64,000 nt of DNA, taken from Candidatus Saccharimonadota bacterium. GTDB taxonomy: Bacteria; Patescibacteriota; Saccharimonadia; Saccharimonadales; UBA4665. Every line of letters starts with the position of its first letter. Position 1 is the first letter of the stretch. Where the stretch lies: NCBI GenBank assembly GCA_025928155.1, contig JAICKC010000003.1:9069-73068 (forward strand), given 5' to 3'. Of the stretch, positions 9,719 through 25,948 are shown piece by piece. Under the pieces are notes generated by a model. It was not told the DNA's origin and made no database searches. It worked only from the letters and a program-made list of their open reading frames with translations. Made by a program: the position numbers and the translations under genes.

Positions 9719-10189
9719 TTATCTCACAGTTTGTGCATGAGTTAATGCAGCGGCAATAGCGTCAGCCGCATCGTCTGGTTTAGGAATTTCCGGCAGGCCG
9801 AGCAACACTCGCACCATTTCCTGCATCTGCTTTTTATCGGCCTTGCCATAGCCGGTGATGGCCTGCTTGATTTGCATGGGCGTATACTCGTAGATTTCCA
9901 TATCCGCCTGTTTGCCGCACAGCAGCACCACGCCCCGGGCCTGCGCTACTGTCATGGCCGTCGTGACATTGCGGGCAAAAAATAACTTCTCCACGCTCAT
10001 GACTTCCGGATGCGTATTGGTGATAATGTCAGTCAGCTCCTCGTAAATGGTTTGTAGCCGCACCGCGTCGTCTTCGTGGACTGGCGTGCGGATCACCCCG
10101 CCGTCTACCAGTGTAGCCTTGCCCTTGGTAGCTTCAATAATGCCGAAGCCGAGTATCCCCGTTCCCGGATCAATGCCGAGTATTCTCAT
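9719..10189 (-). CDS. ruvC: Crossover junction endodeoxyribonuclease RuvC
   Basis: MRILGIDPG start. Length 156 aa. Conserved C-terminal DAADAIA. Confidence 0.9.
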   Translation of the reverse strand: MRILGIDPGTGILGFGIIEATKGKATLVDGGVIRTPVHEDDAVRLQTIYEELTDIITNTHPEVMSVEKLFFARNVTTAMTVAQARGVVLLCGKQADMEIYEYTPMQIKQAITGYGKADKKQMQEMVRVLLGLPEIPKPDDAADAIAAALTHAQTVR

Positions 10190-13959: not shown

Positions 13960-15630
13960 TCAGCCCTTTCTTCGGGCGTCTCCCTTTTTGATATTTTTAT
14001 TGTGCATGAGCGGCAGCGAAATGGCAAACGTCGTACCTTTGCCAATGCGTGACTCCACGTCCACGGTACCGTCATGCAGCCGGACAATTTCGGCCGTAAG
14101 ATACAGGCCGATGCCGCTCCCACCGGCCTCCACGCTCAAAGGGTTATGAATACGCGAAAATTTCACAAACAATTTGCCAATATCTTTTTTGCGAATGCCG
14201 ACGCCCGTGTCACTAACGCGCAAGACGGCATTCCCCCGTACCACCGTGAGCGTCATGCGGACGCTACCGCCTTTGGGTGTGTAAACGCTCGCGTTTTGTA
14301 CGACGTTTTCGATGGCCATACGCAGGTAGCTCAAATCGGCCGCAACGTACACCGGGTCGGCTGGCACGCGCACCGTAAAGGTATGTTCGCGCTGTTCGAA
14401 CACAGGCCGCATTTCAGCGGCAATACCTTGGACAAGCGAACGCAGGTCGAGCGGCATTAGGGCGACCACCAGCTTGCCAGTATCAACGCGCGCGGCGCTC
14501 AAAATTTGGTTGATGATCTGAATTTGCCGCTCATTGCCTTCAAACGCCTTTTCAAGTACGTCGTACTGCATTTCGGTTATGTCGCCCACATAGCCTTGCA
14601 GCATCATGCCGATATACTGCTTCACCGCTGTGGCAGGCGTGCGCAGCTGGTGGCTGGCCAGCGCCACGAACTCGTCCTTGCTGCGCGAGATAGCTTCGAG
14701 CTCCTCGTTGCGCTGCCGCAGGATGCGCGCCGCTTGGCGGTTCAGCCGGTCCTGCTGGCGCGCCAGCGCAACCTGGGCTTGGAGAGTTCGCTGCTCGGTC
14801 AGGTCAACCACTACGCCAGAAAACGTACCGTCTTCGCCCTTTTCTGGCTCGCCGCGAGCCAGAATCCAACGAATCGTTCCGTCTTGCATATACACTCGAC
14901 ACTCTTCCTCGAACAGCACATTTCGCTTCAGACTACGCTGCACGGCAGCAATTACGCGCGGCCGGTCATCCTTGTGCACGGACTCCAGAAACATATCAAT
15001 GGTGTAGGTATGGGCTAGTTCATCAGGCGTGAAAAATAGTTTTTTGAAGTTTTCGTCACCCGTAATCCTGCCATCTGTCGGATCGAAGACCCAGCTGCCA
15101 AGCTTGCCGATAGTGAGCGCGGCGCTCAACCGACTCTCCATTGCCTTAGTCTCCTCCGCAGCCTGCATTTCGTCCGTCACATCGTGGATGATGCACAATA
15201 TGTGACACACTTTGCCCGCAGTATCTCGTAGCGGTACGTAGGCGCCTTGCAGATAGACAGTGCGCTTTACACCGCCAACACCAAACACGGTACCTCGCAC
15301 CGCCTCAAGTCGATAAGAACGGCCGGTACGCATGACTTGCTGCAGGTGTTGCCGCAAGTCTTTGCCAGGCCCACTTTTGAATTGCTCGCCGGTATACGGC
15401 GGTACCGAAAAAAGCGGCCGGCCAATGGTATCGGCACGCGAAATCTGCATCATTTCCTCGCGCGCCTTATTTGCTTCTACAATCATGTAGTCGGGGTCAG
15501 ACGCTTCAAACAGCAAACAGGCGTCGGGTAAATCCCGAAACAGCCGCCAGTAATCAACGGTTTTTTGCCCATCCGCCACCGCCCTAGACCGCGACGTTTT
15601 CGAACTCATCGCTCCCTGTTGCGGCCACAA
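13960..15630 (-). CDS. Soluble sensor histidine kinase with tandem PAS domains (PAS-PAS-HisKA-HATPase)
   Basis: H-box ALASHQLRTPATAV, N-box NVVQNASVYTPKGG, G-boxes VSDTGVGI and GGSGIGLYL. No TM segment. The start is uncertain (15630 or 15609) and overlaps the crp-like gene end. Confidence 0.85.
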   Translation of the reverse strand: MWPQQGAMSSKTSRSRAVADGQKTVDYWRLFRDLPDACLLFEASDPDYMIVEANKAREEMMQISRADTIGRPLFSVPPYTGEQFKSGPGKDLRQHLQQVMRTGRSYRLEAVRGTVFGVGGVKRTVYLQGAYVPLRDTAGKVCHILCIIHDVTDEMQAAEETKAMESRLSAALTIGKLGSWVFDPTDGRITGDENFKKLFFTPDELAHTYTIDMFLESVHKDDRPRVIAAVQRSLKRNVLFEEECRVYMQDGTIRWILARGEPEKGEDGTFSGVVVDLTEQRTLQAQVALARQQDRLNRQAARILRQRNEELEAISRSKDEFVALASHQLRTPATAVKQYIGMMLQGYVGDITEMQYDVLEKAFEGNERQIQIINQILSAARVDTGKLVVALMPLDLRSLVQGIAAEMRPVFEQREHTFTVRVPADPVYVAADLSYLRMAIENVVQNASVYTPKGGSVRMTLTVVRGNAVLRVSDTGVGIRKKDIGKLFVKFSRIHNPLSVEAGGSGIGLYLTAEIVRLHDGTVDVESRIGKGTTFAISLPLMHNKNIKKGDARRKG

Positions 15631-16261
15631 GCAACGACACGTTTACATAGTACGAAAAACGCTGGTAGCTTATGAGTTTTTTAGCCTTCAGTTTGTGCAG
15701 TTCTACGGCCGTAGTTTCGCGTGTCAAGCCGACCATTTCGGCGATGTCCTGGTGACTTAAGCGCAGGCAGATTTTCGTAAGGCCGTTGGCCTGCTTTTCA
15801 CCGAACCGCGCTACCAGATACTGTAAGATATACACGAGCTTTTCCTGTGCATGCGAATGTTCCAGCGCGTATATGTGCATGGTGGCGCTGATGTAGTGCG
15901 ACATGTAGGCCTGGAAGATCTGATCCTTAAGAACCGGGTCGGTTTCAAGCGCTGCCATAAATTCATTTTTGGGCAAATTGCGCACCGTGCAATCGGTGAG
16001 AGCTTCGTAGTAGTACAAACTCACGCGCGACATGCCAAATATACATTCCACCGGGAAAATATCGCCCGGGCTGAGTAATGTAACTGTGCGCTGGTCACCG
16101 CCATTGGTTATACCGTACACCTTTACGAGGCCGCTTTCCAACACCAACACGCCGCGCGGGACTTCGCCCTGGAACATAACGGTACGCTTCTTAGCGAACT
16201 GTCGTGTAACTCCCGCAGCCTTGAGCGCTCTCAATGTGTCAAGTCTTAGCCTCTCATCCAT
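15584..16261 (-). CDS. Crp/Fnr family transcriptional regulator (cNMP-binding domain + HTH)
   Basis: Beta-roll segment GDIFPVECIFG. C-terminal HTH SHQDIAEMVGLTRETTAVELHKLK. Confidence 0.8.
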   Translation of the reverse strand: MDERLRLDTLRALKAAGVTRQFAKKRTVMFQGEVPRGVLVLESGLVKVYGITNGGDQRTVTLLSPGDIFPVECIFGMSRVSLYYYEALTDCTVRNLPKNEFMAALETDPVLKDQIFQAYMSHYISATMHIYALEHSHAQEKLVYILQYLVARFGEKQANGLTKICLRLSHQDIAEMVGLTRETTAVELHKLKAKKLISYQRFSYYVNVSLLVAATGSDEFENVAV

Positions 16262-16509
16262 ATCATCTTTAGTATAGCTTCGCCAGCATTAATTACCAGT
16301 GTTTTCCGTTGCTCTTCGGGCCTGAAGCGCAGCGTAGCTAAAATGGTGATGACGCCCGCTTAGCCGCGCTATCGCCAGCAGAACTGCCCACCCAGATAGC
16401 ATACAGCCATATCTATAGCTGACCGGTACTAGTTTTCGCAAAAATACGCGGTAAACCGCTGAGCAAGTGGACGATATTGAACGATAAGCGCGCCCCACGA
16501 ACGTAAACG

Positions 16510-18309
16510 CTAGGCACCCTGCGAAAGTACTAACGCTGTGCTAGGGGGCAACACAAATGTGCCGTTGCCTGACTGTACGTGTACATCCGGCACATGTATG
16601 CCTGCGAAATCCGGGCTGTATTTTTTGTCGCTGCTGCAAAAACGCACACGCCATGTGCCGCTCAGCGGAAAGCCTATGCTGTAATTCGTGAACGCGTGGC
16701 TGCCAAAATTTACCACCACTACCACGTCGTCTTTGCTGCCGCCATTTTGCCAGCGGTGATAGGCGATGACTTTGTCGTTTTCGTTGACGTGCAGCAGGTT
16801 AAACGAGCGGCCGCCTAGTCCCGCACTTGTACCGTGCAGGTTGCGGCGTAGCGCTATCAGGTCGCGGTAGGCGCTTACAATACCCTTAAAATCTTCGGCA
16901 TTTTGCCACTCCAGCCCCTCCCAGTCATTGAAGTTACCGCTCATCATAAACTCCTGGCCTTGCAGCAGCATGGGAATACCGGGAGCCGTTAGTAGCAGCG
17001 TAGCCGCGAGTAGTGACTGCTGACGTGCAAACTGTCCGTCCGCCTTGCCCGGTGCAATAGCTTCGTTAAACCGCGCGGAGCCGTTGGCCGCCGAGTCGTG
17101 CGAGTCTACAAACACGATTCGCTGCATCGCGTCACCGTTGTAGGTTAGGTTCAGTTCGCCGAGCACGCCCGCCAGATTGATTTGTGCTGGATCGCTCGCT
17201 TGCAACGCTTCGCGCAACGCGTGTGGAAAGCCAACTCCCCACTGCGCCGAAAACCCTGCACCACCCTCACCAGCGGGCTTGGTTATATAATGGTTGGCCC
17301 CTACATCCTCACCAACAGTGAATGTGGCGGGGTTAAGTTTATGTGCCACTTCGTTGACCTGCTGCAGCAAGTGCCAGCCGTCAGCCAGGTCAGTGTCGGG
17401 TGCGTCGTTATAGCCGTTCGCATTGCGGATAAAGATAGTCGAGTCCACGCGCAGCCCATCCACATGGCAGTCGTACATCCACATGCGCACGTTGTCCAGA
17501 ATGTAGTCACGCACTTCAGGCCGACCGTAATCCGGCCGCGTATCACCCCACGGCGTCTTGCTGCGCCAGTCGTTATAAAAATAAATACCGCCTTTACCAT
17601 CCTGCGACCAGCCGTCGAACTGCCAGATGTCGATATCCGCCGGGCCGAGATGGTTGTACACCACATCCAGAATGACCGATATGCCACGCTCGTGGGCCGC
17701 GTTGACAAACTCATGGAACTTGTATCGCCCACCGTACTGTGACTCTACCGTGTAGATATACATGGGCGTATACCCCCACCACTCGCGCTGCGGTGTCATT
17801 GTGCTGATGGGCATAAGCTCGATGGTGGTCACACCAAGTTTGTGCAGGTAATCGAGTTTGGTCGTGATATCCTCGAACGTACCAATAGTCGACGGATCCG
17901 GCCGGTAGAACGTACCGACGTGCATCTCGTATACCACCTGCCGCTCAGGCTCGACCGGCTTAAAATCCTGGTCGGTCCAGTCAAAGTGCTTGTCCACCAC
18001 CACCGAATTGCCGGCCGAAGTCGTCACCTGCAGTGCCCGCGGGTCGTTCTTAAATAAATGCTGGTCGCCGTTAGTAATGGCGTAACGATATTCCTGGCCA
18101 GCCTGCGCGCCCGCTACAAAGGTCGCCCAGTAGCCATCGCCCTCGCTCTCCATAGATTGCTGTTGCCAGTCGTTGAACGAACCGCTCACGGCCACGGCGT
18201 TAGCAAACGGCGCCCACACCCGGAAGCTCACCCCGTTCTTTTGCAGTACCGCGCCGACATCTTTTTTGTGGTGCCCACTCATTTCCCCCATATTATGCCC
18301 GAGGGCCAC
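16510..18309 (-). CDS. GH13 alpha-glucan-active enzyme with N-terminal CBM48 (branching-enzyme / TreZ-like)
   Basis: GVSFRVWAPFANAVAVSGSFNDW (CBM48). GH13 regions VILDVVYNH, GLRVDS and FVDSHD. Confidence 0.85.
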   Translation of the reverse strand: MALGHNMGEMSGHHKKDVGAVLQKNGVSFRVWAPFANAVAVSGSFNDWQQQSMESEGDGYWATFVAGAQAGQEYRYAITNGDQHLFKNDPRALQVTTSAGNSVVVDKHFDWTDQDFKPVEPERQVVYEMHVGTFYRPDPSTIGTFEDITTKLDYLHKLGVTTIELMPISTMTPQREWWGYTPMYIYTVESQYGGRYKFHEFVNAAHERGISVILDVVYNHLGPADIDIWQFDGWSQDGKGGIYFYNDWRSKTPWGDTRPDYGRPEVRDYILDNVRMWMYDCHVDGLRVDSTIFIRNANGYNDAPDTDLADGWHLLQQVNEVAHKLNPATFTVGEDVGANHYITKPAGEGGAGFSAQWGVGFPHALREALQASDPAQINLAGVLGELNLTYNGDAMQRIVFVDSHDSAANGSARFNEAIAPGKADGQFARQQSLLAATLLLTAPGIPMLLQGQEFMMSGNFNDWEGLEWQNAEDFKGIVSAYRDLIALRRNLHGTSAGLGGRSFNLLHVNENDKVIAYHRWQNGGSKDDVVVVVNFGSHAFTNYSIGFPLSGTWRVRFCSSDKKYSPDFAGIHVPDVHVQSGNGTFVLPPSTALVLSQGA

Positions 18310-18397
18310 TCATAAGCGCAAGCGTGATGCTGAATCTACCGCTTTGACAGCATGTGCCCTATTTGCACGCTTTACAAAAAAGTTCTATGGTTAGAGC

Positions 18398-19183
18398 ATG
18401 AAGTGGCCCAGCTCGATTCGATTGATACGGCATGGGGAGTCGAAATATAACGCGCTGAGAGCCGCCAAAGCAGCCGACCCAGATTATCAGGACTTCCTGG
18501 CCTCCTACCACAACCGTAAAGAAGACCCCCGGACAGCTCGGACACTCGCCGAGGCGCTCATTTCCCACGGCGGCCTTATGCTCGGAACCAGCGACTACGA
18601 CACCGATATTACCGACCGCGGCAGATGGCAAGCCGAAGTCACGGGCGAAAAGTTACGCGAACGCGGCACGAAGCCGCCTGACATCATATTTGTTTCTCCG
18701 TATAAACGAACTACCGAGACGCTAGCCCATCTAGCGATTGGCTGGCCGGAGCTAAAAAGCGTGAGAACCGTAGAGGATGAGCGAGTACGCGAACAGGAGC
18801 ACGGGTTATCACTGCTATACAACGACTGGCGAATTTACCATGTAATGCACCCGGAGCAAGAACGACTCTATGAGCTAGAAGGCCCGTATTGGTACCGCTA
18901 CGCTCAGGGCGAGAACGTACCGGATATCCGAGAACGCTGGCGCTCTATGACCGGCACGTTTACGCGCGACTTTTCGGAGCAAGATGTACTCATAGTCACC
19001 CACCATTTGTCAATTCTTGCCTTTAGGGCAAACATGGAGCGCCTTGACCACCACGGCTTTACGCACCTTGACCGCACCCAGAAGCCGGTGAACTGTGGCG
19101 CAACTGACTACCTGGGCGACCCCACTCAGGGCAGCGATGGGCACCTAAGCCTCCATATGTACAACGAAAAGCTGTATGACTGA
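18398..19183 (+). CDS. Histidine phosphatase (phosphoglycerate mutase-like) family protein
   Basis: IRLIRHGES catalytic RHG motif. A second His region is VTHH. Confidence 0.8.
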   Translation: MKWPSSIRLIRHGESKYNALRAAKAADPDYQDFLASYHNRKEDPRTARTLAEALISHGGLMLGTSDYDTDITDRGRWQAEVTGEKLRERGTKPPDIIFVSPYKRTTETLAHLAIGWPELKSVRTVEDERVREQEHGLSLLYNDWRIYHVMHPEQERLYELEGPYWYRYAQGENVPDIRERWRSMTGTFTRDFSEQDVLIVTHHLSILAFRANMERLDHHGFTHLDRTQKPVNCGATDYLGDPTQGSDGHLSLHMYNEKLYD

Positions 19184-19225
19184 CCGACGTTACTAAGAAC
19201 GGACACCATACAGTACAATCAGAGC

Positions 19226-19828
19226 ATGCAGTATTGGATTATCGGAACGCTTATTTTGTCCCTTATTTCGCCCATTTTCTATACTAAGAGTATCCTCGCG
19301 CACAAGGCAAAACCTCACAAGGTTACCCGGCTGATCGTCTGGCTAGCCTCTATCGCCGGTATCTTGGCGGTTGTTCATTCGAACAATGGAGCGGGTAAGG
19401 TATTTGCCGGTATATTCTTGGCCCGCGCGACCTACCTTCTGGTATTGGCAATGCTATACGGCGTGGGCGGAGCGTCAAGGCTGGATCGCACTTGTTTAGT
19501 AATTGGCGTGCTGGCGTTGGGTATCTATGCGACAACTGGCAGCGGGTTACTGGCGCTATCGTGCGCGGTACTTTCGGACCTCATAGGGTATATACCGACC
19601 TTCGTTAAGACCTGGCGCGAACCGACCAGTGAAAGCGCAACGTTCTTTGCCATCGAAGGCCTCGCCGCGTTTTTAGGCGTGCTAGCGATCTGGCAGCTGA
19701 GGGTGGATATCATCTTGCCGGTATATTTCACGCTCTGCTGCGTCATTGTCGTGCTGCTTATTTATCGTAAGAGGATAGCGGGCGCCTTAAAGCTGCGCGG
19801 CGCAACGACACTTGATTCACCTCAGTAA
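19226..19828 (+). CDS. Polytopic membrane protein; paralog of 51827-52405
   Basis: Six hydrophobic helices. Shares the K(A/T)KPH...W motif and the basic loop (VKTWREP / IRKAYRKP) with the other copy. Confidence 0.6.
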   Translation: MQYWIIGTLILSLISPIFYTKSILAHKAKPHKVTRLIVWLASIAGILAVVHSNNGAGKVFAGIFLARATYLLVLAMLYGVGGASRLDRTCLVIGVLALGIYATTGSGLLALSCAVLSDLIGYIPTFVKTWREPTSESATFFAIEGLAAFLGVLAIWQLRVDIILPVYFTLCCVIVVLLIYRKRIAGALKLRGATTLDSPQ

Positions 19829-19848
19829 AGTCGGCTTGTGGCGCGCGG

Positions 19849-20496
19849 TTAAAACAAATGCTTTGCCGCGAGCTCCGTCAACTCCTCCCGGACTACTACC
19901 AGCTCGGCGAAGTCAGGAAACTGCTGCTTAAGGTGTTCGGCCCGGGCTACAAAGTTGCTGCGCAGCTCCTCGGGGGTGATGTATGAGCGCAGCGTTGCTC
20001 CCCGGTCGGCGAAATGCACCAGTATAGGCGTCCATTTATCGATAATACGCACAAAACGTGCTTCCATAACTTCCTGCGCTTCATACTGAATAACGAGCTT
20101 TACGAAACTCGGTATACCAGCAAAGTCCTCCCTTAACCGGCGCAGCCCTGTCGCTTCACGCCTAGCTTTTTGCTTTAATTCTTCCCGGCTTAGGGTATGC
20201 GTGTTTGTGTCGCCCACATACGCCTCCGCGGCGTCGTGGATGGTCGCAAAGCGAGCCACTAGATTTGCGTCCAGGCCGGGATAATACAACTCGGCGATAG
20301 CCGGGGCGATTATAGCCAACATCGCGGAATGTTCAGCAACATTCTCAGCCCTCCCCGTTACATGTCGTACGAGTGTACGGTCTTCAAGAGCTAGGCGTGA
20401 TGAAAGTGCCGTCAGCTGAAGGGCAGTGTAGGCGATATCGGACATGTCAGGCAGTCTTGCGAGAAGCTGGAACGTCTGCGATATCGTGTTTTTCAT
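19849..20496 (-). CDS. HD-domain phosphohydrolase (YfbR-like 5'-nucleotidase family), paralog 1 of 3
   Basis: ENVAEHSAMLAIIA and TIHDAAEAYVGDT (H...HD...D metal ligands). Confidence 0.75.
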   Translation of the reverse strand: MKNTISQTFQLLARLPDMSDIAYTALQLTALSSRLALEDRTLVRHVTGRAENVAEHSAMLAIIAPAIAELYYPGLDANLVARFATIHDAAEAYVGDTNTHTLSREELKQKARREATGLRRLREDFAGIPSFVKLVIQYEAQEVMEARFVRIIDKWTPILVHFADRGATLRSYITPEELRSNFVARAEHLKQQFPDFAELVVVREELTELAAKHLF

Positions 20497-20630
20497 AGGT
20501 AAATGATAGCAAACTCCTCTAAGAACGCACGGCTTTCTTTGTCGGATACCTTACAGATGCAGGGCTAGGGGCATATATACTCTACGGTGGACGTCACAAG
20601 ACGTCTACCCATCGCAGAAGGGAGCTACGT

Positions 20631-21623
20631 GTGCGACGCGTACTTCACGGAAGCCAGCTGGCGCTGGGATCGGTGATCGCAGTCCTTGCTGCACTCACCA
20701 TCATCCCTACGCCCGCTCTCGCGGCACCGCAGCACAGCATCAACGGCCAACCTTGTCTGGTCGACAGTCCACCAGCGGGCTCGGCCATGCCCACCCCCTT
20801 CCTCAAGCTGCCGTTCCGGCAACGCGACGGAATAGGGTCAACGTATGACAGCCAGGGGTGGATTACCTCCCCTGACGAGCTCGCCATCGACGACGAGGTC
20901 AACGGCGACCTGCATGGCGCCAACGACCTGGAGTTCGTTAACAAGCCGGACTACGGTTACGGGCTCCCCATTCTCGCCGCCGCCAGCGGTCGGGCGTACT
21001 ACAGCTATCAGTACATCAGCGGGACTTGGACTGACCCGGTAACGGGTATCACCCACCAAGTCGGCATGGGTGCAGGCCTCGTTGTGGAAATTCGGCACGC
21101 CAAGGATCAGGCGGGTAACCCAGGCTGGGTTACCCAGTACATTCACCTGTCCAAGGTGGCACCGGGAATCCCGTATCTGCAGGCAACGGCTGTAGATGAC
21201 CCGAACGACCCCATTCACCCTGACTGGTTCCCCACGGGGCTCATCCAGGACGACGACACGCTCTGGAATCTCGGCGTACCGGTCACCCAGGGCCAAGTCA
21301 TCGGTTACATGGGCGATACCGGTATTGGGTATGACTGGAAGGATAACTTCAACCCAGTGACCGGCCAGGTCGCACCGCGCAATCGTGCCGTACTCAAGCC
21401 GTGGGATCCCCCACAGCTGCACTTCCAGCTATACCGGGGCCGGGTTAATGGTGTCAAGCAAGACATCGTTGACCCCTTCGGGCTCTATGCCCAAGTGTGT
21501 CCAGGTGAGTGGAAGCCACTGCGGCCGACCACCAACCCCTACACACCACTACCGGGTATGGTCCGCGCAGCACCGGTTACCGCGTGGATTACCCACGCTG
21601 GCCGACCGGTCTACGCCGGCTAG
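20631..21623 (+). CDS. Secreted M23 (LytM-type) metallopeptidase
   Basis: GTG start behind the SD gaagggag. Signal peptide ...IIPTPALA|AP. M23 motifs YIHLSKV, GYMGDTG and HFQLY. Sampled lines are about 62-65% GC. Confidence 0.8.
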   Translation: MRRVLHGSQLALGSVIAVLAALTIIPTPALAAPQHSINGQPCLVDSPPAGSAMPTPFLKLPFRQRDGIGSTYDSQGWITSPDELAIDDEVNGDLHGANDLEFVNKPDYGYGLPILAAASGRAYYSYQYISGTWTDPVTGITHQVGMGAGLVVEIRHAKDQAGNPGWVTQYIHLSKVAPGIPYLQATAVDDPNDPIHPDWFPTGLIQDDDTLWNLGVPVTQGQVIGYMGDTGIGYDWKDNFNPVTGQVAPRNRAVLKPWDPPQLHFQLYRGRVNGVKQDIVDPFGLYAQVCPGEWKPLRPTTNPYTPLPGMVRAAPVTAWITHAGRPVYAG

Positions 21624-21638
21624 CATTTCTGTGACGGG

Positions 21639-21670
21639 CGGTCGGAGCCTGTGCCTAAAGGCTCCGACCG
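21639..21670 (+). terminator. GC-rich hairpin after the M23 gene (11-bp stem, no U-tract)
   Basis: cggtcggagcc (21639-49) pairs with ggctccgaccg (21660-70). Confidence 0.5.
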
Positions 21671-21710
21671 ACTCATCTTAAGGTTCTCAAGTACGTATTA
21701 GTCCTAGGAA

Positions 21711-22283
21711 CTACAGAGAGACTTTTACGCCTGCTTTTATCAGTTCACCTTTGAGCTGCTTGGCAGACAAGAATCGAATGCTCGCAATGCCTATCTTTTC
21801 GGCTGCCGCAACATGTCCTGGATTGTCATCAATAAAAATCGCTTCAGATGCAGACACTCCCAACTTTGACAGCGTATGCTCAAATATTTCTGCACTCGGT
21901 TTTACCATACCCACCTCGCTTGAGATCACTATCTCGTGGAAGTGTCGCTCCAGATCATGCGCCACAAGTAGTTTGCGGATAAACGCTGAGGGGGCATTAG
22001 ACAACAGGGCAATGCGATATCCAGACTTAAGGCTATCGGCAACGGTTACGACTTCCTCATCAACCCGAGCAGTCGCATCGAGTTCTTCACTTGTCACCTT
22101 TCGCCCCTGGAGTTCGCTCAGCCGCTCCAAGAATTGTTCGACCGTTATATTACCCAAATCCATCTGGCGATTTGCCTCAAAGTAGGCTCCTTCATGCGGG
22201 ATGCCGTTGGTCCGCAGCCAAGCTTTGTACGAGTCAGTACGGAAAACGTCAAAGAAGTCAAAGATTATTGCCTTAATCATCAC
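21711..22283 (-). CDS. HAD superfamily hydrolase-like protein
   Basis: Motif I is degenerate (IIFDFFDVF). Motif IV is FIDDNPGHV. Length is typical of the IA subfamily. Confidence 0.65.
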   Translation of the reverse strand: MMIKAIIFDFFDVFRTDSYKAWLRTNGIPHEGAYFEANRQMDLGNITVEQFLERLSELQGRKVTSEELDATARVDEEVVTVADSLKSGYRIALLSNAPSAFIRKLLVAHDLERHFHEIVISSEVGMVKPSAEIFEHTLSKLGVSASEAIFIDDNPGHVAAAEKIGIASIRFLSAKQLKGELIKAGVKVSL

Positions 22284-22651
22284 CTAAACTATAGCAAAGA
22301 AAAACTCCCCATCCTGAGGGGTTTAAATATAAGCTTCTTGGAGTGGTGCCGCTGAAGTCAGTTGCGTGAGCATCTGCTACATCTCCTTTGCGGGTAGCGC
22401 GTTACCGCTCCTCAGGACATAGCTCCATGTGCCCTCTCTGACTATTTACAGGTGTCGAGGGGGTGACTGCGAGCTAAGCGGTATTGCGTTCTAGTCGTAC
22501 GGGTAGCGCTGAGTAATTGATACCGTCATTACTCAGACTATATCAAATAGACATTCCCTAGCACGAGGAGTCGTTATATAAGCACGCATGGAGGGCCCAA
22601 TACTACTCTGCTGCAACCGCTCTACAAAGAAATGAATTCGAACTTAGTGAG

Positions 22652-22681
22652 TTAAGCCCCGGCGTATAATCCGGGGCTTAA
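22652..22681 (-). terminator. Hairpin terminator downstream of hsp20
   Basis: 11-bp stem ttaagccccgg / ccggggcttaa with an 8-nt loop, starting 8 nt after the hsp20 stop. Confidence 0.65.
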
Positions 22682-22688
22682 CTGTCGC

Positions 22689-23156
22689 TTAGCTTTTAGC
22701 GGCTAGCTCTTTACTGTTGCCGGATGAGATAGAAATTCGTTTCGCTTCCGGCCGCTCAACCGGAACTTTAATTTTCAAAATACCTTTATCAAGCTCAGCC
22801 TCAATGTTATCGGCATTAGCGCCTTCCGGCAAAACTACGCGACGGGCGAAGCTTGCACGGCTTTCCCGCATCAGGTAGTTGCGCTTCTTGTCGTCGTCCT
22901 TTTGCTTACTTGCTGTTTCACCTTTGATTTCGAGTACCCCGTTTCGGACATTGATTTCAATATCGTCTTCACTAAAGCCGGGCGCCTGCATTTCAACAAC
23001 CATGTGCTTGTCATCTTCACTATAGATATCCACCGATGGCATACTGAAGCCAGTTGGCAGGCCTGTACTTTTCCAAAAGTCATCCAGCAGACGATCAAAT
23101 TCTTCAAAAGTTGATAGTCCGAGAGAAGAGCTTGGACGACGAATGATATCCATCAT
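22689..23156 (-). CDS. Hsp20 / alpha-crystallin family small heat-shock protein
   Basis: ACD signature: VDIYSEDDKHMVVEMQAPGFSEDDIEINVRNGVLEIKGE...F.R.V.LP...A.L..GIL.I.VP. Confidence 0.9.
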   Translation of the reverse strand: MMDIIRRPSSSLGLSTFEEFDRLLDDFWKSTGLPTGFSMPSVDIYSEDDKHMVVEMQAPGFSEDDIEINVRNGVLEIKGETASKQKDDDKKRNYLMRESRASFARRVVLPEGANADNIEAELDKGILKIKVPVERPEAKRISISSGNSKELAAKS

Positions 23157-23322
23157 ATAAACTCCCTTCTTGCCTCACCGTAGCATTGCTTCAAGGGGTG
23201 ATACGCCTAGAGGAGTTGGCATTAATGTATCTCTCAACCCCAGAAGCTACCTTACGGAGTATAGACATGCATTTAAGTTAATCATCTTGGTAAGTTACCT
23301 TACCTTACTTCAGTTTAGAAAA

Positions 23323-23349
23323 CTAGCACTCTCATGTCAAGAGTGCTAG
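23323..23349 (-). promoter_or_regulatory. CIRCE operator (HrcA site) overlapping the hsp20 promoter
   Basis: CTAGCACTC-tcatgtcaa-GAGTGCTAG versus consensus TTAGCACTC-N9-GAGTGCTAA. On the coding strand the spacer contains TTGACA, followed 17 nt later by TAAACT (23312-17). Confidence 0.85.
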
Positions 23350-23443
23350 TTAGTGCAACCGACTGTCATCTGCAATAACAGATTGATAGATGTGGTGCTG
23401 ATTGGTGAACTTCCACTGAAGTCCGGGAATCTTCGGTGCTAGA

Positions 23444-23944
23444 TTAGTATGTAGAAGGAATGCCTGCCAAGAGCTTTTCGATCATCGGTACTGCAGCCTC
23501 CAGGTAGCTGGTCATCTTCATGTTTGGAGCGTCTATCCGCAATCTTTCTAAGGAATAACTTTCTGCTTTTTCAATTGCAGCCTCTTCAAGTTTATACGGA
23601 CCTTCACTCCTGCCGATGAAGACCGTAACGATCTCTTTGTCTGCCTCGGAGGTAAACTTACCAATCTCCCGAAGTGAAGTCTTTATGCCTAATTCCTCTT
23701 CAGTCTCACGAATTGCAGCTTCAAGATATGACTCGCCAGCTTGAACGTGTCCAGCGGCCGAGCCTGACCAATACAGGGGATAGGTTTTCTTGGTAGACTT
23801 ACGTTGCTGTAGGTAGAGTTCGCTTTTTGAGTTGACGAGAATGACAAATGAAACCCTGCTAAGCAGACTTTTTTGTCTGACTTCGTCTTTTGGTGCAGAG
23901 CCAATTACCGTATCGTTTGCGTCTACAATATCAACGATTTCCAT
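23444..23944 (-). CDS. NUDIX hydrolase
   Basis: Nudix box GHVQAGESYLEAAIRETEEELGI. Confidence 0.8.
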   Translation of the reverse strand: MEIVDIVDANDTVIGSAPKDEVRQKSLLSRVSFVILVNSKSELYLQQRKSTKKTYPLYWSGSAAGHVQAGESYLEAAIRETEEELGIKTSLREIGKFTSEADKEIVTVFIGRSEGPYKLEEAAIEKAESYSLERLRIDAPNMKMTSYLEAAVPMIEKLLAGIPSTY

Positions 23945-23984
23945 GTCGGAAGTATACCAAACGAGGAGACCCCTCTGCCGAGCA

Positions 23985-24014
23985 GTCTTTCATAGTGCTT
24001 ATGCTTGGAGGGCC
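23985..24014. repeat. Distal direct repeat (att-like): copy of the tRNA-Lys 3' end plus its downstream flank
   Basis: gtctttCatagtgcttatgcttggagggcc matches 25851-25880 at 29/30 positions. Confidence 0.75.
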
Positions 24015-24048
24015 GCCGTAGATGTTATCGCAACTCATATTGAGCTTG

Positions 24049-24627
24049 TTAGTGTAGTTTCTCGCCTCGATTTAACATATCGATAAATTTCTCGATTTTT
24101 GCCTTTCTGGTTTCCGGCTTTTTAGCGGTTTGTATACGCCAAGAAAACCCGTAAACGTTTGCTTTATTGAGTGTTTCAAAAAATTGTTTAGCTTTTGGAT
24201 TTTTATCCAGTGCAGCCTGAAAATCCTCTGGAACCTGACTATTACTCGGCGAATCATATGCTGCGTCCCATCTGCCAACTTGCTTTGCTGCATCGATTGC
24301 CACACGTCCAGCCGGTTGCATCTTGCCGGAATGAATAAGTGTTTCTACCTTGGCTACGTTGACTTTTGACCAAATGCTTTTTGGGCCCCTAGGGGTAAAC
24401 TTCTGCAGGTAGTAGTCTTTATCGTATGCTTGCTTTTGGCTATCGATCCAGCCGTAGCACAAAGCTTCTTCCAGTGCTTCGTTGTAGCTAACTGACGTTT
24501 TGTCGGATGACTTTTTTGCGTGCTTAAGCCATAAGCCCTGTGGCTGGGTATGGTTCTCTTCAAGCCAAACCCTCCAGTCTTCTTGACTTACGAATAAGCG
24601 AACGGGCAGGTCTTTAAACATTTCCAT
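24049..24627 (-). CDS. YdeI/OmpD-associated (bacteriocin-protection, DUF1801-like) family protein
   Basis: W..WL..NH......W.....K......SY.EA.EEALCYGWIDS...FTPR...S.WS..N pattern. Start set at MEMFKDL (24627). Confidence 0.7.
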   Translation of the reverse strand: MEMFKDLPVRLFVSQEDWRVWLEENHTQPQGLWLKHAKKSSDKTSVSYNEALEEALCYGWIDSQKQAYDKDYYLQKFTPRGPKSIWSKVNVAKVETLIHSGKMQPAGRVAIDAAKQVGRWDAAYDSPSNSQVPEDFQAALDKNPKAKQFFETLNKANVYGFSWRIQTAKKPETRKAKIEKFIDMLNRGEKLH

Positions 24628-24768
24628 AGTCAAAGGATAGCAATAAAAAACTCCTCGAAACAGAGGAGCTTTATAGTGCGTATTTGGAGGGCCATAGTGG
24701 AACTTATCAGGACGAAACTCATGAGGGATGGCGAAATAAGCATTGCAAAAATGTGACATAATATATTT

Positions 24769-25830
24769 ATGGAATCGTCAAATTATGATAAACCTTTGCC
24801 ATCGATTCGTGTTGCCGTAACAGAAACATGTAATCTTCGATGTGATTATTGCCCGACTGATGGTGATAGTGTCGAGATGCAGAACGGTAGTCTTGATACT
24901 GACGGTTTTGAAGACATGCTTACAGCAGCAATTGACGTTGGTTTTACTGATTTTAGTTTCACTGGCGGAGAGCCGTTGTTAAGCAGAAGGACGGCAGACC
25001 GTACTTTTCAATTGGCGCGTTTGGTCAATGATCTGCGTGCTGAAAAAGGCAGTGATGGCTATACCAAGTTGAATACCAACGGAGCCAATCTTCTCAGATA
25101 CCAAGATGGCGTAGTGAGTGCTGGATTTGATGAGCTAAAAGTTAGCCTTGATACATTAAATCCTGCGACATTCGAAGAGCTTGCCAAGCGTAACGAGAAA
25201 GTTTTCGATGCTACCCTACAAGGAATACTTGCTGTTAAAGATGAAGTGCCCGTTCGCTTACAGACGGTTGTCGGTAAATACAATATAGACGAGCTTCCTC
25301 AAATGTTGGATTTTTGTATCGCACATGGATTAGATATCAAGCTATTTGATATAAGCAGATATAATAATGCACTCGCTGGCTCAGGAAATTTTGCAGACAC
25401 GAACTATGTATCTTTGGATGCGGTTAGTCAAATGTTGGAAGAACAATACGGTGAACCAATAATAAAATTTGCTGTTGGTGGATACGGTCATGCAAAGAAA
25501 GTGTTTACTAGCCCAGAAGGAACTCGCATTGAAATCCGAGACACTTCTAAGAGCGCCCAATATTCTCCTGATTTATGTGAAAGCTGCCCGAATTACATGT
25601 GCCAAGACGGGCTATGTAATTTAGTTATCGCAGCCGATGGGCATATAAGATTTTGTCGAGAGGGTGGAGCCGAGCAAACAATCCCTACTCAAAACGAGCA
25701 TGGTATTAAGTCACTCGATGAACTCAGAAGCGATTTTATGAAAGCGGCTGGCATATTTGCCTTGGCACAGAGTATTGAGCGACCAATCAAGCCACTTCGT
25801 CGATTAATACCACTTACGGTCATCAAATAA
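24769..25830 (+). CDS. Radical SAM enzyme, MoaA-like architecture (N-terminal CX3CX2C plus C-terminal Cys cluster)
   Basis: IRVAVTETCNLRCDYCP, FTGGEPLL, and C-terminal CESCPNYMCQDGLCNLVIAADGHIRFC. Sampled lines are about 37-45% GC. Confidence 0.8.
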   Translation: MESSNYDKPLPSIRVAVTETCNLRCDYCPTDGDSVEMQNGSLDTDGFEDMLTAAIDVGFTDFSFTGGEPLLSRRTADRTFQLARLVNDLRAEKGSDGYTKLNTNGANLLRYQDGVVSAGFDELKVSLDTLNPATFEELAKRNEKVFDATLQGILAVKDEVPVRLQTVVGKYNIDELPQMLDFCIAHGLDIKLFDISRYNNALAGSGNFADTNYVSLDAVSQMLEEQYGEPIIKFAVGGYGHAKKVFTSPEGTRIEIRDTSKSAQYSPDLCESCPNYMCQDGLCNLVIAADGHIRFCREGGAEQTIPTQNEHGIKSLDELRSDFMKAAGIFALAQSIERPIKPLRRLIPLTVIK

Positions 25831-25832
25831 AA

Positions 25833-25858
25833 AGACGTCTCGGCTGAGAAGTCTTTTA
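25833..25858 (+). terminator. Terminator hairpin after the radical SAM gene
   Basis: agacgtctc-ggct-gagaagtct followed by ttttat. It runs into the proximal direct repeat. Confidence 0.55.
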
Positions 25859-25880
25859 TAGTGCTTATGCTTGGAGGGCC
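25851..25880. repeat. Proximal direct repeat (att-like) overlapping the last 9 nt of tRNA-Lys
   Basis: gtctttTatagtgcttatgcttggagggcc. 25872-25880 is the tRNA 3' end including the encoded CCA. Confidence 0.75.
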
Positions 25881-25948
25881 CAGTGGGACTCGAACCCACG
25901 ACACGCGGCTTAAAAGGCCGCTGCTCTAACCAACTGAGCTATGGGCCC
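25872..25948 (-). tRNA. tRNA-Lys (anticodon UUU), CCA encoded
   Basis: The reverse complement folds as a cloverleaf: GGGCCCA-TA-GCTC..GAGC-A-GCGGC-CTTTTAA-GCCGC-GTGTC-GTGGG-TTCGAGT-CCCAC-TGGGCCC-T-CCA. Confidence 0.9.

What the first reader, a model, noticed from the sequence alone, without database searches (positions are those of the whole stretch)
23985..25948. 1.8-kb AT-rich two-gene cassette flanked by 29/30-nt direct repeats that include the 3' end of tRNA-Lys
Seen in sequence:
- gtcttt(C/T)atagtgcttatgcttggagggcc occurs at 23985-24014 and at 25851-25880.
- The second copy covers the last 9 nt of tRNA-Lys(UUU), CCA included, plus 21 nt of its downstream flank.
- Weaker similarity continues about 25 nt further into a hairpin on both sides.
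- Between the repeats lie only a YdeI/DUF1801-like gene (-) and a MoaA-like radical SAM gene (+). Both are visibly more AT-rich than the backbone.

Established knowledge: integrative elements that target tRNA 3' ends leave exactly this signature, an intact tRNA plus a displaced partial 3' copy.

Inference: this is a small integrated or decayed island, or a trans-mobilised cassette, because no integrase gene is visible in or next to it.
Basis: partly seen in the sequence, partly recalled or inferred. Interest (0 to 1): 0.65.

Follow-up and report, generated by a model that had tools for sequence, protein, structure and literature searches.

The report
Gene-cassette island at tRNA-Lys end
The repeat-flanked block is two single-gene cassettes at the start of a roughly 9.6-kb flexible island that has grown by repeated insertion at the 3' end of tRNA-Lys in a Saccharibacteria genome. 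Related genomes carry a large serine integrase gene at exactly this junction.

Summary
In detail: the 29/30-nt repeat lies at 23985-24014 and 25851-25880, and the second copy includes the last 9 nt of tRNA-Lys(UUU).

The block is therefore two single-gene cassettes, not one two-gene unit.

- **Setting:** the organism is a Saccharimonadales (TM7) bacterium. Across about 170 related loci, RimK-mem169-tRNA-Lys is conserved, and everything on the 3' side of the tRNA varies, from 5 nt to more than 9 kb.
- **Extent here:** the variable stretch in the window is 16262-25871.
- **Empty site:** a near-identical strain (L001) has 106 nt where the window has 2,419 nt (NUDIX, YdeI, radical SAM).
- **Same cassettes elsewhere:** the radical SAM and YdeI cassettes recur in other genomes with different neighbours. 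Homology stops exactly at the CCA.
- **Boundary site:** boundaries carry a conserved site, GTTGCnACAGCGTCnACGATGGCCCTCCA, that mimics the tRNA 3' half.
- **Recombinase:** in at least eight other loci a large serine recombinase gene abuts this tRNA end. It heads 5.5-8.7-kb defence-cargo elements that end in the same kind of site.

No recombinase lies in this window. I read this as a new variant of a known kind: SCC-like and tycheposon-like accretion.

The parts
25872..25948 (-). tRNA-Lys(UUU), CCA encoded. Its 3' end anchors the island and acts like attB.
   Evidence: ARAGORN; Rfam tRNA, 74 bits.
25829..25880 (-). Copy C. It comprises the last 9 nt of the tRNA plus the 'W' trailer AGCATAAGCACTATAAAAGAC, a hairpin and a T-run. 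The hairpin serves as a shared terminator for the tRNA and the radical SAM gene.
   Evidence: An nhmmer W-module profile gives E=5e-16. The same trailer follows tRNA-Lys in L005, L072, L088 and L166.
24769..25830 (+). Cargo of cassette 1: a MoaA-like radical SAM protein of 353 aa that lacks the MoaA C-terminal domain. The family is specific to Saccharibacteria and other CPR bacteria.
   Evidence: Pfam PF04055. NCBIfam matches are below cut-off. Homologues are 91, 85 and 73% identical in Saccharimonadales.
24685..24704 (-). Copy B core, AGTTCCACTATGGCCCTCCA. It is the distal boundary site of the radical SAM cassette.
   Evidence: Homology with L088 (88.8% over 1265 nt) and with L179 (79.9%) ends exactly at 24685. 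In L088 this core is a perfect 18-nt tRNA 3' end.
24628..24684 (-). B trailer: a terminator hairpin (24647-24672) plus an extended -10 box (TGCTATCCT) in front of YdeI. It travels with YdeI.
   Evidence: Terminator scan. The same trailer precedes YdeI in L180.
24049..24627 (-). Cargo of cassette 2: a YdeI/OmdA-family protein of 192 aa.
   Evidence: Pfam PF13376. The cassette is 679 nt here and 680 nt in L180, at 75% nt identity.
24006..24035 (-). Copy A core with its left arm, GTTGCGATAACATCTACGGCGGCCCTCCA. It is the distal boundary site of the YdeI cassette.
   Evidence: It belongs to the conserved boundary-site family, which has 17 hits against 1.2 expected.
23964..24005 (-). W trailer of copy A, 20/21 identical to that of copy C. 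It contains a hairpin and an extended -10 box (TGGTATACT) in front of the NUDIX gene. It is orthologous to the distal copy in L005.
   Evidence: nhmmer E=4.5e-15; terminator scan.
23444..23944 (-). NUDIX hydrolase (YfcD/IPP-isomerase-like), the third variable gene. It is absent from the conspecific contig L001.
   Evidence: Pfam and NCBIfam. Homology to L001 resumes at 23452.
22589..22608 (-). Copy X, a degraded tRNA-3'-like core, GAGTAGTATTGGGCCCTCCA. Eleven nt are exact. It is also present in L001.
22339..22352 (-). Copy Y, a doubtful core remnant (GGCACCACTCCA). Its trailer resembles the trailer that follows the tRNA in L100.
   Evidence: The evidence is weak.
16262..25871 (.). The whole flexible interval between the tRNA-Lys 3' end and the first conserved backbone gene on that side, a Crp-like gene at 15584-16261. 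The 21650-25871 part is AT-rich. The far part is less certainly acquired.
   Evidence: Each gene in the interval is shared with 5 or fewer of about 170 related loci, while the flanks are shared with 18-162.

Best explanation
The block is the newest part of a genomic island that grows by site-specific insertion at the CCA end of tRNA-Lys(UUU).

Each unit reads trailer (terminator plus extended -10 promoter), then one gene, then a roughly 30-nt boundary site ending in GRCCCTCCA that mimics the tRNA 3' half. In the window the order is: tRNA | W trailer, radical SAM, core B | B trailer, YdeI, core A | W trailer, NUDIX, and so on.

A circular DNA carrying 'boundary site | trailer' as its attP recombines with the tRNA end as attB. 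The crossover falls inside the shared CCCTCCA. This leaves the tRNA intact and pushes older units outward.

The likely catalyst is the large serine recombinase family that sits at this junction in related Saccharimonadales. Here the cassettes have no recombinase of their own. They are either remnants or are moved in trans.

**Shown:** the hot spot, the strain-level presence or absence, the cassette-wise mosaic with breakpoints at CCA, the conserved boundary site, and the recombinase gene at the same junction in relatives.

**Inferred:** that this recombinase made these particular junctions, where exactly the crossover lies, and that the cassettes are still mobile.
For: - **Hot spot:** RimK-mem169-tRNA-Lys is conserved. 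The next backbone gene starts 5 to 5136 nt after the tRNA in 42 loci. The gap reaches about 8.5 kb in L100 and L005 and 9.6 kb here.
- **The variable DNA follows the tRNA 3' end:** where the tRNA is inverted, the variable DNA is still on its 3' side.
- **Strain-level difference:** L001 matches the window at 97.5% up to 25872, the CCA. It then has 106 nt in place of 2,419 nt.
- **Core copies are placed and oriented non-randomly:** G[GA]CCCTCCA occurs 32 times downstream on the tRNA strand, against 1, 0 and 4 in the three control compartments.
- **Cassette mosaic:** homology with L088 and L179 ends at 24685. Homology with L180 begins at the same core and covers the YdeI cassette. Neighbours differ on both sides.
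- **Conserved boundary site:** 17 hits in 2.46 Mb against 1.2 expected.
- **Recombinase in relatives:** large serine recombinase genes overlap the tRNA-Lys 3' end in L004 (two in tandem), L007, L047, L095/L096, L185 and L186, with remnants in L109 and L168. Pfam Resolvase gives 3e-12 and PHROG 95 integrase about 1e-30.
- **Complete elements end the same way:** elements of 5.5-8.7 kb end in ...ACCTCCA or ...ACGGTGACCCTCCA. In L185 a recombinase-less one-gene cassette with the same arm follows the element.
- **GC gradient:** GC rises with distance from the tRNA.
Against: - No recombinase lies in the 64-kb window. The rest of the genome was not available.
- No circular junction or excision product was seen.
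- Serine recombinases normally leave only a 2-bp repeat. The 30-57-nt similarity of copies A and C therefore needs the extra assumption that the incoming circle carried a W-type trailer. That would follow if it had been excised from another tRNA-Lys array.
- The arms of the recombinase-bearing elements share only 6-14 nt with the window's cores.
- The radical SAM gene next to tRNA-Lys in three genomes could be vertical inheritance.
- The distal NUDIX boundary at 23452 has no recognisable core.
Confidence: 0.65

Rival explanations
1. The boundary modules are old scars or simply conserved terminator-promoter modules. Cassettes then move between Saccharibacteria by natural transformation and homologous recombination. 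The tRNA gene and the 30-60-nt modules serve as homology anchors, and no dedicated site-specific recombinase acts on them today.
For: - A ComEC competence gene is part of this very neighbourhood.
- Identity to L001 drops from 97.5% to 91.9% across the island, as expected for recombinational replacement.
- The modules are shared between genomes and lie at block boundaries.
- No recombinase lies in the window.
Against: - Homologous recombination does not create direct partial copies of a tRNA end.
- It does not explain their strict orientation and position.
- Nor does it explain why a non-tRNA left arm (GTTGCnAnAnC...) is conserved across species.
- A recombinase gene sits exactly at the junction in eight or more genomes.
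Confidence: 0.17
2. This is classical tyrosine-integrase integration into the tRNA gene with a crossover in the T-loop. The 17-20-nt copies would then be displaced fragments of the resident tRNA, and the integrase gene has since been lost.
For: - Several cores begin at the boundary between T-loop and T-stem.
- Many species have perfect 17-20-nt copies of their own tRNA end 150-195 nt downstream.
- This is the textbook signature used by the Islander database (abstract of PMC4383910, listed).
Against: - A phmmer search with an E. coli XerD sequence written from memory found nothing among the ORFs of the window and 81 loci. The search was not validated, and the companion resolvase query in the same run missed the serine recombinases later found in L004, L007 and L047.
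- The window cores carry one extra nucleotide and a non-tRNA left arm shared with other genomes, so they are not fragments of the resident tRNA.
- In L179 the core differs from the resident tRNA.
Confidence: 0.1
3. The modules are functional RNA or expression signals. They would be tRNA-like 3' mimics that direct processing or stabilise each mRNA, duplicated locally, and the genes are native.
For: - Each module contains a terminator-like hairpin and an extended -10 box.
- The related units of roughly 135-155 nt in other species show compensatory base changes.
Against: - The modules occur almost only downstream of tRNA-Lys and in one orientation.
- They mark the limits of strain- and species-specific DNA.
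- YdeI homologues elsewhere (L182) lack them.
- Rfam finds nothing here except the tRNA.
Confidence: 0.05

Closest known systems
Staphylococcal and enterococcal cassette chromosomes (SCCmec, ECC)
   Same: - Large serine recombinases insert elements at the 3' end of one conserved gene.
- The elements are flanked by direct att repeats with a conserved central motif.
- Cargo is highly variable.
- Remnants lacking the recombinase remain at the site (PMC6222049, read).

Here the equivalents are tandem elements (L004), recombinase-less cassettes (window, L185, L180) and a conserved core.
   Different: - The target is a tRNA gene's CCA end, not rlmH.
- There is one recombinase gene, not a ccrA/ccrB pair. 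NCBIfam similarity to CcrB is far below cut-off.
- Units can be single genes of 0.5-2.3 kb, each with its own terminator and promoter.
- The host is a CPR bacterium.
Tycheposon-shaped tRNA islands of Prochlorococcus
   Same: - The genome is streamlined.
- Islands are anchored at tRNA genes.
- Successive integrations push older elements inward.
- Partial tRNAs and degraded elements are scattered through the island.
- Most islands hold no active element (bioRxiv 10.1101/2020.12.28.424599).
   Different: - In that screen, 910 of 937 integrase-carrying elements have a tyrosine recombinase, and many also have replication genes. Neither was found here.
- The recombinase here is a large serine recombinase whose ORF runs into the tRNA.
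- The boundary sites are mimics of the tRNA end, not exact partial tRNAs.
Integron gene-cassette arrays
   Same: Both are arrays of mostly single-gene cassettes, each ending in a conserved recombination site and all stacked at one entry site. The same cassette appears in different arrays.
   Different: - There is no IntI tyrosine recombinase.
- There is no attC-type folded site.
- Cassettes carry their own promoters and are not all in one orientation. The radical SAM gene is reversed.
Classical tRNA-gene genomic islands (Islander type)
   Same: An intact tRNA lies at one end. A displaced copy in direct orientation lies at the other. The island is absent from relatives.
   Different: The abstract of PMC4383910 (listed) describes tyrosine integrases and true displaced tRNA fragments. 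Here there is no integrase in the island, the cores are not resident-tRNA fragments, and the junction lies at or after the CCA rather than inside the tRNA body.

Membership tests
tRNA-anchored integrative genomic island | Intact tRNA gene at one end | tested here: met
   tRNA-Lys(UUU) at 25872-25948; Rfam 74 bits.
tRNA-anchored integrative genomic island | Direct repeat of the tRNA 3' end at the far end | tested here: met
   Copies A, B and X have 9-11 exact nt and up to about 20 similar nt. All are in direct orientation.
tRNA-anchored integrative genomic island | Integrase gene inside the island | tested here: not met
   The window has none. Related genomes have a serine recombinase at the same junction.
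tRNA-anchored integrative genomic island | Island absent from close relatives (empty or alternative site) | tested here: met
   L001 has 106 nt in place of 2,419 nt. Other species have the backbone gene 5-200 nt after the tRNA.
SCC-like serine-recombinase cassette chromosome | Large serine recombinase encoded by the element | tested here: not met
   The window's cassettes have none. Sister elements in L004, L047, L095, L185 and L186 do.
SCC-like serine-recombinase cassette chromosome | Insertion at the 3' end of one conserved gene, with conserved att repeats at every boundary | tested here: met
   All junctions fall at ...CCCTCCA|, and the site family is conserved.
SCC-like serine-recombinase cassette chromosome | Tandem arrays that include recombinase-less units | tested here: met
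   L004 has two elements in tandem. L185 has an element followed by a recombinase-less cassette. The window has at least two or three units.
SCC-like serine-recombinase cassette chromosome | Demonstrated excision to a circle and re-integration | not testable with these tools
   No read-level data or experiment was available.
Integron | IntI tyrosine recombinase next to attI | tested here: not met
   An unvalidated phmmer search with a XerD sequence written from memory hit nothing in the window and 81 loci. The genes beside the tRNA are a NUDIX hydrolase and the radical SAM gene.
Integron | Promoterless cassettes with attC hairpin sites | tested here: not met
   Cassettes carry their own extended -10 boxes and terminators. 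The boundary site is a tRNA-end mimic, not an attC.
Tycheposon | Hallmark tyrosine recombinase plus replication module | tested here: not met
   Neither was seen in the window or in the annotated related elements.

The most novel reading that the evidence does not exclude
Saccharimonadales, which are ultra-small episymbionts with genomes of about 1 Mb, may keep an active, integron-like exchange system. Single-gene cassettes (trailer, gene, tRNA-mimic site) would be captured at, and excised from, the CCA end of tRNA-Lys by a dedicated large serine recombinase acting in trans. Recombinase-less cassettes such as the radical SAM and YdeI units would then circulate among genomes as a shared flexible gene pool.
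Probability: 0.3. Interest if true: 0.75.

Novelty: new variant of a known kind. Interest (0 to 1): 0.55.

Why it matters
- **Gene gain in reduced genomes:** Saccharibacteria have tiny genomes, and little is known about how they gain genes. A single conserved entry site at tRNA-Lys would explain part of their strain-level variation. The site is served by a lineage-specific serine integrase family and stocked with defence systems and small accessory genes.
- **A possible genetic tool:** a serine integrase with a natural landing pad in a conserved tRNA would be useful in a group where genetic manipulation has only just become possible.
- **A caution for island-finding software:** tRNA-fragment signatures can be element-borne mimics rather than displaced tRNA pieces. 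They can also be made by serine rather than tyrosine recombinases.

Tried and rejected
- **phmmer with E. coli XerD and gamma-delta resolvase sequences written from memory.** I ran these against all ORFs of the window and 81 loci and found nothing. The resolvase query was too insensitive. The recombinase was later recognised by eye and confirmed with Pfam and PHROGs.
- **IMG/VR search for a phage-borne attP.** The trailer motif gave 6 hits with no extension beyond the pattern, so they are chance matches. The tRNA 3' 23-mer gave none.
- **Rfam on the island and on four related loci.** Only the tRNA was found, plus a spurious antisense plastid hit.
- **Exact-sequence lookup of the NUDIX protein next to the tRNA.** It is not on record.
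- **PDB sequence search with the recombinase.** No match.
- **Search for the class I structured unit in the window.** Absent.
- **Promoter reading of the repeat, based on the TATAGT on the plus strand.** Rejected, because two of the three copies would point into antisense DNA.
- **The idea that the whole 9.6 kb is one island with an att site at its far end.** No core lies next to 19829-19848 or 16262-16509. Only the tRNA-proximal 3.5 kb shows cores.
- **Literature searches.** I found no description of this system in Saccharibacteria or Patescibacteria.
Full report
**Observation.** tRNA-Lys(UUU) lies at 25872-25948 on the minus strand. The 30-mer is present at 23985-24014 and 25851-25880 with one mismatch, and similarity extends to 57 nt at 82%. 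A 24-nt version with up to 3 mismatches hits only these two sites in 64 kb, and no shuffle reached that. The tRNA-side copy contains the last 9 nt of the tRNA, CCA included, plus 21 nt of trailer that runs into a hairpin. Between the copies lie a YdeI/OmdA gene (24049-24627, minus) and a MoaA-like radical SAM gene (24769-25830, plus). The block is 43% GC against 53.9% for the window.

- TTGGAGGGCC occurs a third time, at 24684-24693, between the two genes.
- Read in the tRNA's orientation, this copy B is AGTTCCACTATGGCCCTCCA, then AATACGCACTATAAAG, a 10-bp terminator hairpin, and an extended -10 box just before the YdeI start.
- A degraded fourth copy, X (GAGTAGTATTGGGCCCTCCA), lies at 22589-22608.
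- A doubtful fifth, Y, lies at 22339-22352.
- GC rises stepwise away from the tRNA. The values are radical SAM 42.6, YdeI 44.0, NUDIX 45.1, Hsp20 46.4 and HAD 48.3%, followed by a 61.9% peptidase gene.

**Organism and locus.** RimK, 1.1 kb from the tRNA, retrieved 80 species genomes and 80 metagenome contigs. Nearly all the titled genome records are named as Saccharibacteria or Saccharimonadales.
- The order RimK, 169-aa membrane protein, tRNA-Lys is conserved.
- None of the window's genes on the 3' side of the tRNA is shared with more than 5 loci.
- The backbone resumes with ComEC, a Crp-like gene, YebC and others at very different distances. ComEC starts 5 to 5136 nt after the tRNA in 42 loci. 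The Crp-like gene starts 1.2 to 8.8 kb after it in the closest relatives.
- In the window the interval is 16262-25871, or 9.6 kb.
- Where the tRNA is inverted relative to RimK (L094, L109, L088), the variable DNA and the recombinase remnant are still on the tRNA's 3' side.

**Strain-level presence or absence.** Contig L001 comes from JGI sample 3300067034. Its RimK is 100% identical to the window's. It matches the window at 97.5% from 29522 to 25872, which is exactly the CCA. It then has 106 unrelated nt, and then matches 23452-22367 at 91.9%. The window's 2,419 nt holding NUDIX, YdeI and radical SAM are absent. The variable block is therefore three genes, not two.

**Cassettes.** The radical SAM gene lies convergent with tRNA-Lys, with the same trailer, in L088 (protein 91% identical). 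It also does so in L179 (85%), though L179's trailer differs.
- Nucleotide homology to the window runs from the tRNA to 24685 in L088 (88.8% over 1265 nt). It runs to the same base in L179.
- Beyond that base the three genomes carry different genes: YdeI, a 259-aa protein and a cytidylyltransferase.
- In L088 copy B is a perfect 18-nt tRNA 3' end. In L179 it differs from the resident tRNA.
- YdeI itself is widespread in the order.
- L180 holds an array downstream of tRNA-Lys(CUU). There, YdeI is flanked by ACGATGACCCTCCA on both sides and preceded by the same B trailer. The cassette is 680 nt against 679 nt in the window, at 75% identity, and its neighbours differ.
- The W trailer of copies A and C also follows displaced cores in L005, L063, L099 and L180.
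- The units are therefore: trailer, gene, core. The breakpoints fall within the shared CCCTCCA.

**The boundary site.** Cores in the window (A, B) and in L009, L029, L071, L099, L123, L180 and L185 align to GTTGCnACAGCGTCnACGATGGCCCTCCA. There are 17 hits in 2.46 Mb against 1.2 expected.
- The site parallels the tRNA 3' half position by position. It has one extra base and a left arm that is not tRNA sequence.
- It is therefore an element-borne mimic, not a fragment of the resident tRNA.
- Across the RimK-anchored loci that carry tRNA-Lys(UUU), G[GA]CCCTCCA occurs 32 times downstream on the tRNA strand. The three control compartments have 1, 0 and 4.
- A 12-nt copy of the tRNA end, allowing one mismatch, occurs downstream in 18 of 119 loci, upstream in 1, and inverted in 4.

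**The recombinase.** Clustering the ORFs downstream of the tRNA exposed a 516-554-aa protein with an N-terminal ...CRVSTKGQ... motif.
- It hits Pfam Resolvase (3e-12) and PHROG 95 'integrase' (about 1e-30, near full length). NCBIfam hits to XisF and CcrB are weak.
- The gene is convergent with tRNA-Lys, and the open reading frame runs antisense into the tRNA.
- It is present in L004 (two copies, 7.7 kb apart), L007, L047 and L095/L096, which are among the closest relatives. Fragments remain in L109 and L168.
- Two family members chosen without reference to the locus (L185, L186) sit at the same junction in the same interval.
- Complete elements are 8.66 kb (L047), 7.67 kb (L004), 6.85 kb (L185) and 5.5 kb (L186).
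- Their cargo is defence-type: DpnII restriction-modification, a Macro domain, AAA_15/21 ATPases, a C5 methylase with an HNH nuclease, and a reverse transcriptase.
- The elements end in CCTTGGTAGACCTCCA, CTGCACCTCCA or GAGGACGGTGACCCTCCA, directly followed by the older trailer.
- The L185 arm matches the window's copy A in 12 of 14 nt. In L185 a recombinase-less one-gene cassette with a second copy of the same arm follows the element.

**Mechanism.** I conclude that the tRNA-Lys CCA end is the attachment site of a Saccharimonadales serine-integrase family. The window shows two, probably three or more, recombinase-less cassettes stacked there.

The near-identity of copies A and C is explained if the incoming circle had itself been cut out of a tRNA-Lys array, so that it carried 'core | W trailer'. 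Insertion next to a native W trailer then gives two core-plus-W junctions.

Three things are inferred and not shown: that this enzyme made these junctions, the exact crossover position, and present-day mobility. No recombinase is in the window, and no circular junction could be sought.

**Rivals.** Three alternatives are scored separately.
- Exchange by transformation and homologous recombination, using the modules as anchors. This may well contribute.
- A lost tyrosine integrase.
- A purely regulatory role for the modules.

**Comparison with known systems.** The closest analogues are SCCmec and ECC: serine recombinases, the 3' end of one conserved gene as target, conserved att repeats, and recombinase-less remnants. 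Next closest are the tRNA islands shaped by tycheposons in Prochlorococcus. It differs from SCC and ECC in its target and its single recombinase, and from tycheposons in its recombinase class. Cassette size and host set it apart from both. Searches of the paper library found no description of this system in Saccharibacteria or Patescibacteria.

**Verdict.** This is a real feature, with the interpretation right in kind but wrongly delimited. It is a new variant of a known kind, of moderate interest.

Noticed in passing
L019:12553-12729, L014, L027, L029, L041, L074, L104, L133, L169 and others; absent from the window: Many species have a terminator directly after tRNA-Lys, then a unit of roughly 135-155 nt that ends in a perfect 17-20-nt copy of that genome's own tRNA 3' end. 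Unit-like sequence was found in 26 loci by blastn and 16 by nhmmer. The unit holds an inverted and a direct copy of the T-stem 5' half. Of 28 predicted pairs, 17 show compensatory changes. There are at least three sequence classes, sometimes two or three in tandem. Rfam has no match. Serine-recombinase elements insert between the tRNA and this unit (L047, L186). Its function is unknown.
   Followed up: partly
L004:12177-13835, L185:10001-11611, L095:11644-13308: The serine recombinase reading frame crosses the attachment junction and ends inside, or beyond, the antisense tRNA-Lys gene. The C-terminal tail of the protein would therefore differ between the integrated and the excised form. This could act as a built-in switch.
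   Followed up: no
L090:10001-11256, L091, L092, L093: A 73%-identical homologue of the radical SAM gene lies convergent with tRNA-Trp(CCA) rather than tRNA-Lys, about 115 nt away. A possible degraded tRNA-Trp 3' copy lies upstream of the gene (L090, about 9738-9757).
   Followed up: partly
L180:1364-7800: An array of cores (ACGATGACCCTCCA, three copies) lies downstream of tRNA-Lys(CUU) rather than tRNA-Lys(UUU). Both isoacceptors end in GGCCCTCCA, so both may serve as entry sites.
   Followed up: partly
window 22353-22588: This roughly 235-nt non-coding stretch between copies X and Y is conserved in L001 (inside a 91.9%-identical block). It has a clear hairpin (GAGTAAT...ATTACTC). No Rfam hit and no ORF.
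   Followed up: no
window 23157-23443: A 287-nt leader lies upstream of the Hsp20 gene and is conserved in L001. It has a near-consensus promoter (TTGACA, 17 nt, TAAACT, running 23340-23312 on the minus strand). It could be a heat-responsive leader.
   Followed up: no
window 20631-21623: This M23-like peptidase gene is 61.9% GC, well above the window mean of 53.9%. It sits inside the flexible interval next to AT-rich genes, so it may be a separate acquisition from a different source.
   Followed up: no
L001:3653-3758: The 106-nt trailer in the conspecific strain starts GCCAAGTAAAATCAG. It shares AGTAAAATCAG with the tRNA-adjacent arm of the serine-recombinase elements of L047 and L186, and with the trailers of L025 and L076. 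It may be a remnant of such an element in this species.
   Followed up: partly
L005:11620-14480: A related species has the same arrangement with different cargo. A W trailer follows the tRNA, then a 2.8-kb insert (a PIN-like protein and a 467-aa protein with no family match), then a displaced core plus W trailer orthologous to the window's copy A.
   Followed up: partly
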